A DNA stretch of 13,784 nucleotides from a virus. Taxonomy: Duplodnaviria > Heunggongvirae > Uroviricota > Caudoviricetes. The notes below the pieces were generated by a model. The model saw only the letters and a program-made list of their open reading frames with translations. It ran no database searches and was not told where the DNA came from. Made by a program: the position numbers and the translations under genes. Location of the stretch: positions 1-13,784 of the IMG/VR virus record IMGVR_UViG_2548876856_000011. One strand, given 5' to 3'. The stretch's first letter is position 1. Every line of letters starts with the position of its first letter. Shown here piece after piece: positions 1-2,008 of this stretch.

Positions 1-472
1 ACCTTCTATAGCAAGTTTTAAGGTTCGACTATCATGATGGGTATAATATAGTCTTTTCATTTTATTTTTCTCTCATTAAAATGCTCTTAATTAAGAATAC
101 CTATGCCTTTAACAGGCTCATAGTTATGATTTGTGATGCTTTCAAAAGGGTATGTAACTAAGTATTGAACTCTACACCTAAGATTCTAAGATTTTTAAAT
201 TAAAGTAGTTAAACATGCTTTTGATTGTACTCATTCTATGTCCATCGTTGCTGCATGTCTAGATATCGTGCCCCGCTATTGTTATGTAATGATATGATGG
301 ACGCCCTGTCTGAAGCAGCCAGTGAAATATTTTTACTGTCTGCGTTTTCTACAGGAGTAAATCACATGAGCACAATCAGAGTTGTTGGTATTGATATTGA
401 CCTGTGCCCAATTTTTTGAGACATATATTGGTACGCTCTTGGCACAGGGCTGCTGCTGCAGCCCTGACAGCT

Positions 473-676
473 TTAGACTTCGATCGATTCAGAGATCTCT
501 AATGCATCATCAACTTCTATACCCAGATAACGAACTGTGCTTTCCGTTTTCTTATGGCCCAACGGAAGTTGGATCACCCGGAGATTCTTAGTTTTCTTGC
601 AGACAAGGCAAGGTTTTGTTCTTCTCATGGAATGTGTGCTGTAAAGCGAATCTTCGAGACCAAGCTTTTCTCCCCC
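473..676 (-). pseudogene. C-terminal fragment of a tyrosine recombinase (integrase remnant); upstream part degraded
   Basis: Minus-strand translation ending at stop 473..475 reads ...LYSTHSMRRTKPCLVCKKTKNLRVIQLPLGHKKTESTVRYLGIEVDDALEISESIEV: H-x-x-R, LGH and the Y of tyrosine-recombinase box II are in frame. An in-frame TAG lies just upstream at 677..679, and the ORFs at 588..770 and 841..1041 are in other frames, so no intact N-terminal or box I region is present. Confidence 0.5.
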
Positions 677-1098
677 CTATGAAAGATTCGGTTATATTGC
701 AGGATTGATATGTGTTGGTTAGTACCGACCCGAGATCGGAACAAGTAGTCTTTACTGCGTAAATTGCCAAGCTTTATCAATGCAGAAACAGCTTCTCTTG
801 TCCCTTTGGTTATCTCAAATTGGATAGGACTGCCAGTTTTTCAGTTGCAACACCGTAGCTCTGCTTGAAACCGAGCTAAATCACGCGTTTTACCTTCCAG
901 TTCAAGCCGGATTTGGAGCCCCCAGATATGAGATATCTGAAGTGGTCTTTTTGGGCCTATGATACTGTCTTTGTTCCTCGGTGACGTATTCATACTCAAA
1001 TCTCCTGCAATGTGGAAGATTTGAGTATGGTTGTCTCTCAAGAGCGAAATAGGTCAACTATAACTAGTTGTTGTGCATGTACGAATTCTGCCAATTAA

Positions 1099-1941
1099 TT
1101 ATTGACAATAAAAAATTCTGGAATGTTCGAAATCATCATATCGAATTATAATCTGGTTGACTGCATCTATTGTTGGCGCCATTTCAGTTATAATATCTCG
1201 ATAACCTAAAGAGTTAAATACATTTACTAAGGCCTCACACCGTAGGCCAATAGCAATTACGACATTATAAATTGCCAGCCGTTTATTTTCTTGTTTAACT
1301 GCAAGAGTGAGTTCGATAGCAGTAGTTTTATCGCTTTGGATTGCATTATATAGAGATACTATATTTGCCATATCATCAGAGAATGTATGTATTGAATCAC
1401 AAAGAGGGACGTAATAGGCATGATAGTGTGTTTCCCAGCCAATTACTTCGAAAAGCTTTTTGGTTCCAGGATATTCAGGTGTATTTGGCCACAATCTATT
1501 AAACATATCAGTTAGCTCTTTTCCGATACGAATCCTTTCATCTGCTGCTGGATTAGTCATTTCTTTGGATTTTAAACACTCCAGCCACCGTTTCCCATTA
1601 CTATGAACTAATTTCTTACTACCCTTGAGTAATGCTTGTGCATTTTTTCCATCATCAATTGCTATATAAAATTGATTGGCAGCCTGTTCCATTATAACTC
1701 TAGTTAATACTTCCGATGCTGAAAAGGCTCCGGTACTCAAAGAAAATATAGCCTGATTACTAAGTTCATCCAGTACATTAAAGTAATGTAAAACCATCAA
1801 TTTTTGTTCCACCCCCTTTAGGTTATCTATTTTATTTTTATGCCTCTCAAATTTCGCATGGATATATTTATTTATCGCGGCTATTTTTTTTACATCTTCG
1901 TCGAAATCAAACGGGCAACGTCCAAACGATTTTTTCCTCAT
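1099..1941 (-). CDS. hypothetical protein, 280 aa, orphan low-GC cargo gene (candidate defence / abortive-infection function, unproven)
   Basis: Clean 280-codon ORF with ATG at 1941..1939, AGGAGG-type RBS (plus-strand cctcct 1947..1952) and TAA stop. GC is clearly lower than the flanking phage genes (about 33% by eye). Lys-rich, probably helical; C-terminus carries RYDDFEH, an R-x5-H arrangement like the HEPN motif. I do not recognise the family. Confidence 0.8.
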   Translation of the reverse strand: MRKKSFGRCPFDFDEDVKKIAAINKYIHAKFERHKNKIDNLKGVEQKLMVLHYFNVLDELSNQAIFSLSTGAFSASEVLTRVIMEQAANQFYIAIDDGKNAQALLKGSKKLVHSNGKRWLECLKSKEMTNPAADERIRIGKELTDMFNRLWPNTPEYPGTKKLFEVIGWETHYHAYYVPLCDSIHTFSDDMANIVSLYNAIQSDKTTAIELTLAVKQENKRLAIYNVVIAIGLRCEALVNVFNSLGYRDIITEMAPTIDAVNQIIIRYDDFEHSRIFYCQ

Positions 1942-1979
1942 ATATTCCTCCTGTTTTACAATCTCCCATAAGTTGGAAA

Positions 1980-2008
1980 ATTATACACTGGAGATTACCT
2001 ATAAATAA
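1980..2008 (-). promoter_or_regulatory. candidate sigma70 promoter for the 280-aa cargo gene
   Basis: Minus-strand TATAAT (plus attata 1980..1985) about 40 nt upstream of the ATG; weak -35 TTATTT 17 bp further upstream (plus 2003..2008). Confidence 0.4.

What the first reader, a model, noticed from the sequence alone, without database searches (positions are those of the whole stretch)
1..2008. Low-GC cargo segment in the prophage: orphan gene with its own promoter beside a decayed recombinase
The left ~2 kb is visibly more AT-rich than the ~50% GC phage genes to its right. It holds one intact 280-aa gene with a near-consensus -10 (TATAAT) and AGGAGG RBS, and a tyrosine-recombinase remnant (473..676 in frame, upstream degraded). 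A self-promoted, low-GC gene next to a recombinase fossil just past the replication module is the usual signature of a moron or defence cargo acquired separately from the phage backbone.
Basis: partly seen in the sequence, partly recalled or inferred. Interest (0 to 1): 0.75.

Follow-up and report, generated by a model that had tools for sequence, protein, structure and literature searches.

The report
Prophage cargo: DUF5677 gene, dead recombinase
The AT-rich left end of this E. coli prophage is part of a swapped-in cargo island that sits beside a known Septu anti-phage system and carries one intact gene of unknown function (DUF5677), which is a plausible but untested new defence gene, next to a dead copy of a small recombinase that recurs at cargo junctions in many mobile elements.

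Summary
Window 1..2293 is 38% GC against 47.5% for the rest. It holds one intact 280-aa gene (1099..1941, minus strand) with a TATAAT box and an AGGAGG ribosome-binding site, and a tyrosine-recombinase pseudogene (473..993).

The "separately acquired cargo" reading is supported and can be sharpened.
- The segment is the right half of a ~4.4-kb island between replication gene P and hokD of a DicB-type lambdoid prophage. The left half, just outside the window, is a Septu system (PtuA/PtuB).
- The same interval holds PD-T7-1 in phage mEp460.
- The recombinase plus DUF5677 block recurs at 89-90% identity in the G-FI (Z/fun) defence hotspot of P2-like prophages.
- The recombinase is not a decayed large integrase. 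It is a dead copy of a widespread ~200-aa recombinase whose neighbours are hypervariable: Old, PD-T7-1, Septu and HEC-08 in prophages, metal-resistance modules in conjugative elements.

The gene belongs to Pfam DUF5677. It matches no known defence model, shows purifying selection and has an enzyme-like invariant polar cluster. Its fold resemblance to HEPN is weak and it lacks the HEPN motif.

Best guess: a stand-alone anti-phage effector (confidence about 0.45). Function is untested.

The parts
1..60 (-). First 20 codons of ptuA, the AAA ATPase of a Septu system. The rest of ptuA and ptuB (HNH) lie left of the window.
   Evidence: RefSeq CDS in the identical locus ends at window position 60. 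PADLOC gives PtuA E 1.9e-165 and PtuB E 1.1e-83.
61..472 (.). AT-rich spacer between the recombinase remnant and ptuA. It holds the best promoter-like match, 261..233 on the minus strand, facing ptuA.
   Evidence: GC 0.374. TAGACA-17-TAGAAT matches 10 of 12 positions, but the number of such sites is not above chance. Among complete E. coli genomes this spacer is found only in the ~20 that carry this island.
473..993 (-). Pseudogene of a ~200-aa short tyrosine recombinase. It has an 82-nt deletion that removes the first catalytic Arg region, plus a +1 and a -1 frameshift.
   Evidence: Alignment to the intact CFT073 gene C_RS01365 at about 90% identity. RefSeq annotates it as 'frameshifted; internal stop'. 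Intact relatives match Pfam Phage_integrase.
991..1029 (-). Conserved hairpin or palindrome (13-bp arms here, 15 bp in relatives) covering the Shine-Dalgarno sequence and ATG of the recombinase.
   Evidence: It is the only inverted repeat above shuffles (score 25 against 16.8 +/- 2.2; 0 of 60 shuffles reach it). Two compensatory arm changes occur in L031 and L036. It is retained as a 74-nt stub in P2-like Yersinia phages.
1047..1048 (.). Recurrent homology breakpoint, 54 nt upstream of the recombinase ATG. It marks the boundary between the recombinase module and the cargo upstream of it.
   Evidence: The same end point is seen against the CFT073 island, the P2-like Yersinia and E. coli phages, and IMG/VR loci.
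1099..1941 (-). Intact 280-aa DUF5677-family gene (WP_001227887). This is the candidate effector.
   Evidence: Pfam PF18928 at 34.8 bits, above the 27.1 cutoff. phrog_4167, function unknown. Invariant R81, E85, F164, Y173 and H185, with near-invariant N89, S183, D190 and N193 (D182 is invariant in the 17-sequence alignment A2). dN/dS 0.37 against the P2-borne copy, with no indel. AlphaFold2 model with pLDDT 84, all helical.
1942..2258 (-). Upstream non-coding region that travels with the gene. It holds AGGAGG (1947..1952) and TATAAT (1980..1985).
   Evidence: About 90% identical to the P2-borne copy, up to exactly the P2 cargo/backbone junction (window 2258 = L002 10853). No Rfam hit and no unusual folding (z +0.43 and -0.37).
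2259..2293 (.). Short junction sequence of unknown origin between the shared cassette and the lambdoid backbone.
   Evidence: Not covered by the P2 homology nor by lambdoid backbone homology, which starts at about 2294.
2294..2655 (-). Remnants of lambdoid backbone genes (DUF977-like and DUF1627 pseudogene) truncated by the cargo insertion or replacement.
   Evidence: 86-89% matches to DUF977 genes in many E. coli genomes. RefSeq annotates a DUF1627 pseudogene at 2453..2655.

Best explanation
Window 1..~2293 is the right-hand part of a composite, horizontally acquired cargo island of about 4.4 kb. The island sits in the variable interval between replication gene P and hokD/rem of a DicB/Rac-type lambdoid prophage of E. 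coli.

In the direction of the phage early-right operon (minus strand), the island reads: DUF5677 gene, dead short tyrosine recombinase, then Septu ptuA-ptuB.

The DUF5677 plus recombinase block is a portable two-gene module that also occupies the G-FI (Z/fun) defence hotspot of P2-like prophages. Here the recombinase has decayed and the DUF5677 gene has been kept.

The DUF5677 protein is most likely a stand-alone cytoplasmic enzyme. I read it as an anti-phage, abortive-infection-type effector, possibly a nuclease built on a HEPN-like helical core. Its active site would use the invariant R81/E85/N89 and D182-S183-x-H185/D190/N193 cluster. It would be expressed from its own weak promoter in the lysogen and by read-through from pR after induction.

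**Shown:** composition, gene integrity, family membership, island structure and boundaries, the Septu neighbour, hotspot occupancy by known defence systems, and purifying selection.

**Inferred:** the defence role, the enzymatic mechanism and promoter activity.
For: **Cargo status**
- GC 0.384 against 0.475, and GC3 0.267 for the gene.
- Related lambdoid phages share the backbone only from about 2294-2479 onward, and carry other cargo at the same place: PD-T7-1 in mEp460 (99% identical to a protein that hits PADLOC PD-T7-1 at 7e-157) and Paa/AdfO in PPompW.

**Defence neighbourhood**
- PtuA/PtuB lie immediately to the left.

**Portability**
- Window 509..2258 is 87-90% identical to the cargo of the P2 G-FI hotspot in MS7163, S88 and about 35 other genomes. 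The match ends exactly at the P2 backbone junction.
- Vassallo et al. 2022 (PMC9519451) describe that P2 locus as defence-enriched.

**Hotspot pattern**
- In 37 IMG/VR loci, the same short recombinase is flanked by 19 upstream and 19 downstream protein clusters. These include Old, PD-T7-1, two PtuA subtypes, PDC-S67, HEC-08, PDC-S06 and PDC-M01B.
- DUF5677 is the commonest upstream neighbour, in 13 of 37 loci.

**The gene is functional**
- The exact 280-codon frame is kept over about 10% nucleotide divergence. dN/dS is 0.37 and no invariant residue is touched, while the adjacent recombinase has three frame-breaking lesions.
- There are 53 representative clusters of 280-300 aa stand-alone proteins sharing an invariant polar cluster.

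**The family is mobile accessory cargo elsewhere**
- Inovirus-like prophage ends, ICE cargo beside an integrase or an Mrr nuclease, next to ParDE, and a single-gene integron cassette in Vibrio.

**Fold**
Against: - Neither this protein nor any of 34 relatives matches a PADLOC model. There is no PDB sequence hit.
- Foldseek against PDB and BFVD gives nothing significant.
- The one DUF5677 ORF reported as tested (from Bacillota, expressed in E. faecalis, six phages) was not among the five of nine candidates that gave protection (PMC12632615).
- Some distant homologues sit among ordinary metabolic genes.
- The short recombinase also marks metal-resistance cargo in conjugative elements, so its company is not specific to defence.
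- The promoter call rests on a -10 box alone.
Confidence: 0.45

Rival explanations
1. DUF5677 is a moron with a non-defence role. It would be an enzyme or regulator that benefits the lysogen or the phage in another way, such as anti-defence or counter-defence, stress or host-interaction functions, or modification of a host component. On this reading it merely shares the cargo hotspot with defence genes.
For: - Prophage hotspots also carry non-defence cargo, for example Paa/AdfO at this very interval in PPompW.
- The associated recombinase marks arsenic, mercury and copper modules in conjugative elements.
- An Aeromonas homologue lies among metabolic genes.
- There is no defence-model hit.
- The tested DUF5677 ORF gave no reported protection.
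Against: - Both E. coli contexts are loci where experimentally validated defence systems sit: P2 G-FI, and the lambdoid P-hok interval with PD-T7-1 or Septu.
- The family recurs as single-gene cargo on prophages, ICEs and an integron cassette, and beside toxin-antitoxin and restriction genes.
Confidence: 0.3
2. DUF5677 is not autonomous. It would be an accessory subunit either of the adjacent Septu system (making a three-gene variant) or of the short recombinase (a directionality or accessory factor of a small mobile cassette).
For: - In the ~20 complete E. coli genomes with the lambdoid version, it is always linked to this ptuAB allele, which occurs nowhere else among complete E. coli genomes.
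- It is the most frequent upstream neighbour of the recombinase, in 13 of 37 loci.
Against: - The P2-borne copy has no ptuAB.
- About 1 kb, including a pseudogene, separates it from ptuA.
- Recombinase relatives have 18 other upstream neighbours, and DUF5677 homologues elsewhere lack the recombinase.
- The recombinase is dead here while DUF5677 remains under purifying selection.
Confidence: 0.08
3. The gene is an inert hitch-hiker: a recently transferred ORF with no current function in E. coli, on its way to decay like its neighbour.
For: - The prophage shows decay elsewhere: frameshifted integrase, ydfD stop, DUF1627 remnant.
- The gene is rare, occurring in about 1% of complete E. coli genomes.
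Against: - The frame is intact in both lineages at about 10% divergence, dN/dS is 0.37, and the invariant residues are preserved.
- There is family-wide conservation of length and motifs.
- The -10 box and ribosome-binding site are conserved in the P2 copy.
Confidence: 0.07

Closest known systems
Defence and accessory hotspots of temperate phages: P2 Z/fun (G-FI) and old/tin loci, and P4 psu-int (Rousset et al. 2022, PMC9122126; Vassallo et al. 2022, PMC9519451; NAR 2026, PMC13586616)
   Same: A fixed position in a conserved phage backbone where unrelated, low-GC, often single-gene or two-gene systems replace one another. The very same DUF5677 cassette occupies the P2 G-FI hotspot, and known systems (Septu, PD-T7-1, Old) occupy the equivalent lambdoid slot.
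   Different: The slot here is in a lambdoid phage, between P and hokD/rem. The papers I read describe hotspots for P2 and P4, not this one. They also do not mention the ~200-aa recombinase with a fold-back hairpin that is often present in these slots.
Septu (PtuA ATPase + PtuB HNH nuclease; Doron et al. 2018)
   Same: The genes immediately left of the window are a canonical two-gene Septu. They are co-oriented with DUF5677.
   Different: DUF5677 is not a Septu component. It matches no PtuA or PtuB model, it is separated from them by a pseudogene, and it occurs without Septu in P2-like prophages.
HEPN-domain abortive-infection and toxin RNases (AbiD/F, AbiU2, AbiV, Csm6/Cas13 HEPN; Anantharaman et al. 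2013)
   Different: There is no Rx4-6H motif. The conserved Arg (helix 73-94) and His (start of helix 183-203) are 100 residues apart, and extra invariant acidic and amide residues look more like a metal site. No Pfam HEPN-clan model is hit by any of 35 members, and Foldseek is not significant.
Lambdoid 'morons' (Juhala et al. 2000; recalled from my own knowledge)
   Same: An extra gene with deviant GC, inserted between backbone genes, with its own -10 box and ribosome-binding site.
   Different: No flanking terminator was found. The gene is co-oriented with the early-right operon, and it arrived as part of a multi-gene island with a recombinase rather than as a promoter-gene-terminator unit.
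Recombinases as markers of defence or cargo loci: serine recombinases (PMC12632615) and integron integrases with cassettes
   Same: A small site-specific recombinase gene is found next to highly variable cargo. One DUF5677 homologue is itself an integron cassette.
   Different: This is a tyrosine recombinase of only ~200 aa, not IntI and not FimB/E-like (25 bits against a 222-bit cutoff). No attC-like sites were found, the homology breakpoints lie outside its palindrome, and the copy in the window is dead.

Membership tests
Pfam DUF5677 (PF18928) | Score above the curated gathering threshold of the family model | tested here: met
   34.8 bits against a cutoff of 27.1, E 2.2e-8. All 35 aligned relatives hit the model.
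HEPN superfamily | Four-helix up-down bundle core | tested here: inconclusive
HEPN superfamily | Catalytic Rx4-6H motif at the start of the last core helix | tested here: not met
   The invariant His185 lies in ...P-L-C-D-S-I-H-T-F-S-D-D..., with no Arg 5-7 residues upstream in any of 35 sequences. The invariant Arg81 is in a different helix.
Known anti-phage defence families (PADLOC-DB v2) | Significant match to a defence-protein HMM | tested here: not met
   0 families at E <= 1 for the window protein. Across 35 relatives there were only 4 single-member chance-level hits.
Septu | Adjacent PtuA (AAA_15/21 ATPase) and PtuB (HNH) genes | tested here: met
   This holds for the two genes left of the window (PtuA E 1.9e-165, PtuB E 1.1e-83). 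Only 60 nt of ptuA are inside the window. DUF5677 itself is not a component.
Tyrosine recombinase (Phage_integrase, PF00589) | Intact catalytic domain with the R..HxxR..(H/W)..Y residues | tested here: not met
   Intact relatives have them (Pfam E 4e-17; sequences). The window copy lacks the first Arg region through an 82-nt deletion and has two further frameshifts.
FimB/FimE-type DNA invertases | Membership of the NCBIfam 'tyrosine-type DNA invertase' subfamilies, and an adjacent invertible element | tested here: not met
   25.5 and 18.2 bits against cutoffs of 222 and 221. The 35-nt inverted repeat flanking the block is within chance. All 19 full-length genomic copies are collinear.
Moron (promoter-gene-terminator insertion in a phage operon) | Deviant composition, own promoter, own terminator, expression in the lysogen | tested here: inconclusive
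   Composition is met. A -10 TATAAT and AGGAGG are present and conserved in the P2 copy, but the -35 is poor and the scan is not above chance. No terminator was found. Expression cannot be tested here.
Integron gene cassette | Single promoterless ORF flanked by attC sites in a cassette array | tested here: not met
   No such repeats flank the window gene. A Vibrio parahaemolyticus homologue (L017 1290-2141) is flanked by members of a 12-copy ~125-nt TAACAA...GTTA repeat family.

The most novel reading that the evidence does not exclude
Two linked readings remain open.

1. DUF5677 is a new single-protein anti-phage effector with a non-canonical active site (R-x3-E-x3-N plus D-S-x-H-x4-D-x2-N) on a HEPN-like helical core.
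2. The ~200-aa tyrosine recombinase, with its conserved fold-back hairpin, is the engine or anchor of a cargo-exchange platform. This platform would shuttle defence and resistance modules between P2-like phages, lambdoid phages, genomic islands and conjugative elements. The window would preserve a fossil of one such event: the shared breakpoint at 1047/1048, the block ending exactly at the P2 hotspot junction, and the dead recombinase.
Probability: 0.2. Interest if true: 0.75.

Novelty: new member of a known kind. Interest (0 to 1): 0.5.

Why it matters
**A cheap candidate to test.** If DUF5677 protects against phages, it adds a single-gene defence family that current annotation tools miss. 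Members occur in prophages, ICEs and integron cassettes across Proteobacteria. The invariant residues R81, E85 and H185 give ready-made mutants.

**A usable hotspot.** The lambdoid P-to-hokD interval behaves like the well-studied P2 and P4 hotspots. It carries Septu, PD-T7-1, Old and HEC-08 in different phages, so it can be mined in the same way.

**A search handle.** The small recombinase that keeps turning up at these junctions is a possible handle for finding cargo, and perhaps a clue to how cargo moves between unrelated phage types.

**For this particular window** the result is modest: a correct call of an acquired cargo island, next to a known system, with one uncharacterised gene.

Tried and rejected
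- **Invertible or transposon-like element.** A 35-nt inverted repeat (256-290 / 1994-2028) brackets recombinase plus DUF5677. Its score (19) is within dinucleotide shuffles (16.8 +/- 2.2), it is not conserved in the P2 copy, and all genomic copies are collinear. Rejected.
- **Recombinase as a truncated P4-type integrase.** Relatives are consistently 200-203 aa in at least 8000 clusters. Rejected.
- **Recombinase as FimB, FimE or IpbA.** NCBIfam scores are far below cutoff, and ipbA is described as the same gene as hbiF/fimX, a PAI-encoded recombinase. Rejected.
- **Structured RNA or small RNA in the 320-nt conserved upstream region (1942-2300).** There is no Rfam hit, and the folding z-scores are +0.43 and -0.37. 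No support.
- **Sequence route to function.** PDB by phmmer or profile, Pfam at E <= 1 for 35 members, NCBIfam and PHROGs gave nothing beyond DUF5677 and phrog_4167.
- **Foldseek against PDB and BFVD.** Nothing significant. The AFDB libraries were unavailable.
- **The motif CTGACAGTCTG near the P2 junctions.** It gives 3 hits in the window at up to 3 mismatches, and 4 of 200 shuffles reach this. Not pursued.
- **Literature.** Two papers in the library mention DUF5677 and one of them PF18928, but neither gives a function; the protein accessions and phrog_4167 are not mentioned anywhere. The supplements of the two most relevant papers are not held.
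Full report
**1. Where the window comes from**

The window is an E. coli lambdoid prophage of the DicB/Rac type. It carries cI-like and cro-like genes, YdaT, a DnaT-like O protein, P, ydfABC, DicF RNA, dicB, an exonuclease, and an integrase next to tRNA-Ser. Window 1..2400 is 100% identical to eight complete E. coli genomes, including AMSHJX01. It is at least 99.5% identical to nine more, including EPEC E2348/69, and two further genomes match about 92% of the stretch at 99.7-99.8%.

**2. Checking the observation**

- *Composition.* GC is 0.34-0.44 over the first ~2.2 kb and about 0.45-0.57 afterwards. 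Segment 1..2293 is 0.384 against 0.475 for the rest, and the lowest same-size window elsewhere is 0.442.
- *The gene.* The 280-aa gene has GC 0.349 and GC3 0.267, against GC3 0.38-0.67 for the phage genes. The ORF 1099..1941 (minus strand) is intact.
- *Expression signals.* On the minus strand, AGGAGG lies at 1947..1952, five bases before the ATG, and TATAAT lies at 1980..1985. The -35 is poor. The consensus scan does not list the site, and it finds no excess of promoter-like sites (6 against 8.0 expected) and no terminator on this strand. Both the -10 box and the ribosome-binding site are conserved in the diverged P2-borne copy.
- *The recombinase remnant.* It spans 473..993 and is annotated as frameshifted with an internal stop.

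Only the claim of a self-sufficient promoter remains unproven.

**3. The island and its boundaries**

In the identical genome and in E2348/69, the order on the minus strand is: P, DUF1627 pseudogene, DUF5677 gene, recombinase pseudogene, AAA ATPase, HNH endonuclease, (IS481 in E2348/69 only), hokD, rem, DUF968, RusA, Q. The ATPase and HNH pair is a Septu system: PtuA E 1.9e-165 and PtuB E 1.1e-83. PtuA starts at window position 60.

Homology to other lambdoid phages begins only at about 2294-2479. This ptuAB allele and its upstream spacer occur in complete E. coli genomes only together with this island.

The same interval is variable in relatives:
- Phage mEp460 carries a 449-aa protein that is 99% identical to an IMG/VR protein matching PADLOC PD-T7-1 at 7e-157.
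- PPompW phages carry Paa/AdfO and two hypothetical genes.

So 1..2293 is the right half of a ~4.4-kb cargo island at a lambdoid hotspot. The insertion or replacement truncated backbone genes (DUF977 and DUF1627 remnants at 2294..2655).

**4. The recombinase is a dead short recombinase, not a decayed integrase**

Window 431..1047 is about 90% identical to a gene annotated as site-specific integrase in more than 1000 complete E. coli genomes. In CFT073 this gene is an intact 200-aa ORF, and in MS7163 it is 194 aa. Both have the Phage_integrase catalytic domain and the R, HxxR, H and Y residues.

Relative to CFT073, the window copy has an 82-nt deletion that removes the first catalytic Arg region, plus a +1 and a -1 frameshift.

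The family is very large and length-conserved. At least 8000 clusters have E <= 1e-10, and nearly all the listed ones are 200-203 aa, from Enterobacterales to Alteromonadales. It is not FimB/FimE-like: it scores 25 bits against a cutoff of 222. It has no solved relative by sequence.

A perfect 13-15-bp inverted repeat covers its Shine-Dalgarno sequence and ATG (window 991..1029).
- It is the only inverted repeat in the region above shuffles: score 25 against 16.8 +/- 2.2, with 0 of 60 shuffles reaching it.
- It keeps its pairing through two compensatory changes in diverged copies.
- I read it as fold-back inhibition of translation from read-through transcripts, as known for IS10 and IS50 (my own knowledge). 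A lox-like binding site is an alternative.

**5. The block is portable and its company is telling**

Window 509..2258 is 87-90% identical to the cargo of the G-FI (Z/fun) hotspot of P2-like prophages in MS7163, S88 and about 35 other genomes. Comparison with P2-like phages that carry other cargo places the P2 cargo/backbone junction at L002 10852|10853. That is exactly where the homology to the window ends, at window position 2258. Vassallo et al. describe this P2 locus as a second defence-enriched hotspot containing fun and three of their systems (PMC9519451).

A 74-nt stub (window 974..1047: the hairpin plus the first 18 nt of the recombinase) survives in P2-like Yersinia and E. coli phages beside a different 373-aa cargo. 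The breakpoint 1047|1048 is shared by the CFT073 island, these phages and the window.

In 37 IMG/VR loci with a full-length relative of the recombinase, the flanking genes fall into 19 upstream and 19 downstream clusters. PADLOC recognises among them:
- Old (3e-209) and PD-T7-1 (7e-157);
- a second PtuA subtype (E 0);
- PDC-S67, HEC-08 (1e-73), PDC-S06 and PDC-M01B.

Many of these loci are the lambdoid P...hokD/rem interval, and five are the P2 hotspot. DUF5677 is the commonest upstream neighbour, in 13 of 37 loci.

In marine gammaproteobacterial conjugative elements, the same recombinase (84% identity) sits between an arsenic-resistance operon and mercury, copper or IS cargo. It therefore marks cargo junctions in general, not defence specifically.

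**6. The DUF5677 protein**

*Family and conservation.*
- It passes the Pfam DUF5677 threshold and equals phrog_4167, of unknown function.
- The word-indexed search finds only two close E. coli variants, at 99% and 87% identity.
- Exhaustive HMMER finds 53 representative clusters, mostly 280-300-aa stand-alone proteins.
- The alignment shows invariant R81, E85, F164, Y173 and H185, and near-invariant N89, W119, P158, S183, D190 and N193 (D182 is invariant in the 17-sequence alignment A2). This gives the motifs R-x3-E-x3-N and D-S-x-H-x4-D-x2-N.
- The two E. coli lineages differ at about 10% of nucleotides with no indel. dN/dS is 0.37 and none of the invariant residues is changed.

*Structure.*
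- An AlphaFold2 model (17 sequences, pLDDT 84, pTM 0.80) is all helical.
- Foldseek finds nothing significant in PDB or BFVD.
- The HEPN Rx4-6H motif is absent, so I do not file the protein as HEPN.
- The mix of invariant Arg, His and acidic or amide residues fits an enzyme active site, with or without a metal.

*Database and literature checks.*
- No PADLOC model matches this protein or 34 relatives.
- The only experimental mention found is a preprint in which a Bacillota DUF5677 ORF was one of nine candidates tested in E. faecalis. It was not among the five that protected (PMC12632615).

*Contexts of distant homologues.* They are mostly mobile or accessory:
- the end of integrated inovirus-like prophages;
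- ICE cargo beside the integrase, with a variant next to an Mrr-type nuclease;
- beside ParDE;
- next to an SMC_N/AAA_23 ATPase;
- a single-gene cassette in a Vibrio parahaemolyticus integron array, flanked by a 12-copy attC-like repeat;
- one copy among metabolic genes.

**7. Interpretation**

*What is shown.* This is an acquired, low-GC, composite cargo island at a lambdoid hotspot. It consists of a known Septu system, a dead cargo-junction recombinase, and an intact, selectively maintained gene of an uncharacterised family that also occupies a validated P2 defence hotspot.

*What is inferred.* DUF5677 is a stand-alone anti-phage effector of the abortive-infection type, possibly a nuclease. 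It would be expressed from its own weak promoter in lysogens and from pR read-through on induction, since all island genes are co-oriented with cro-O-P...Q. I put this at about 0.45.

*Rivals.*
- A non-defence moron, including an anti-defence role: about 0.3.
- An accessory of Septu or of the recombinase: about 0.08. It is contradicted by the P2 context and by the dead recombinase.
- An inert hitch-hiker: about 0.07. It is contradicted by purifying selection.

**8. Novelty and score**

The kind of thing is known: cargo in a prophage hotspot next to a defence system. The specific gene family is uncharacterised and absent from defence databases. The lambdoid P-hokD hotspot and the recurrent ~200-aa recombinase are not described in the papers I could read.

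I rate this as a new member of a known kind, with interest 0.5. It is a good, cheap experimental candidate rather than a surprise.

The most novel reading not excluded is a new catalytic family of defence effectors together with a recombinase-anchored cargo-exchange platform spanning P2-like phages, lambdoid phages, islands and ICEs. I give it a probability of about 0.2.

Noticed in passing
window 473..1047; loci L019-L094: A ~200-aa catalytic-domain-only tyrosine recombinase family (at least 8000 clusters, nearly all 200-203 aa) sits at junctions between hypervariable cargo modules. In lambdoid and P2-like prophages the modules are defence systems (Old, PD-T7-1, Septu, HEC-08, PDC-S06/S67). 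In marine gammaproteobacterial ICEs they are arsenic, mercury and copper resistance modules. The papers I read do not describe it.
   Followed up: partly
window 991..1029 (also L003 7634-7672 and L002 9565-9603): A perfect 13-15-bp inverted repeat with a 9-13-nt spacer covers the ribosome-binding site and start codon of the short recombinase. It is above shuffles and shows two compensatory arm changes in diverged copies. It could be fold-back translational control or a lox-like site.
   Followed up: partly
L004 5277-6626 (phage mEp460_ev081): The 449-aa 'hypothetical protein' of phage mEp460, located at the same P-to-hok interval, is 99% identical to a protein that matches PADLOC PD-T7-1 at 7e-157. 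This lambdoid interval therefore behaves as a defence hotspot.
   Followed up: yes
window 2212..2258: A ~46-nt stretch just inside the cassette end also occurs at 89-95% identity in phages PhiR12_5 and mEp234 and on several STEC plasmids. Its nature is unknown.
   Followed up: no
window 6469..6520 and 6518..6727: DicF antisense RNA (Rfam 76.7 bits, above the gathering score), followed by a sub-threshold STnc100-like match (34.4 bits against a threshold of 47).
   Followed up: no
window 9897..10947, 10978..11064, 12056..12128, 12282..13559: RefSeq annotates the prophage integrase as frameshifted in the identical genome. It abuts tRNA-Ser. Beyond mtfA and a tRNA-Asn, a second intact 425-aa integrase begins another island. 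ydfD in the prophage has an internal stop. The prophage is therefore probably defective.
   Followed up: no
L017 1..9141 (Vibrio parahaemolyticus contig): A DUF5677 homologue is a single-gene cassette in a chromosomal integron array, flanked by members of a 12-copy ~125-nt TAACAA...GTTA repeat family.
   Followed up: partly
L003 6069-6806 (CFT073): In CFT073 the intact short recombinase is followed on the same strand by an 'ETEC_3214 family protein' of unknown function. The surrounding island also holds dynamin-like, RdcB-family and patatin-like genes, so it may be another cargo or defence locus.
   Followed up: no
P0004 (221 aa, metagenome contig): A protein carrying Pfam PF02677 (which I recall as the QueH/DUF208 family) is 93% identical to the DUF5677 protein over about a third of its length. 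It is probably a chimeric ORF formed at a cargo/backbone junction. Separately, the backbone to the left of ptuB matches DNA annotated as QueH in other genomes.
   Followed up: no
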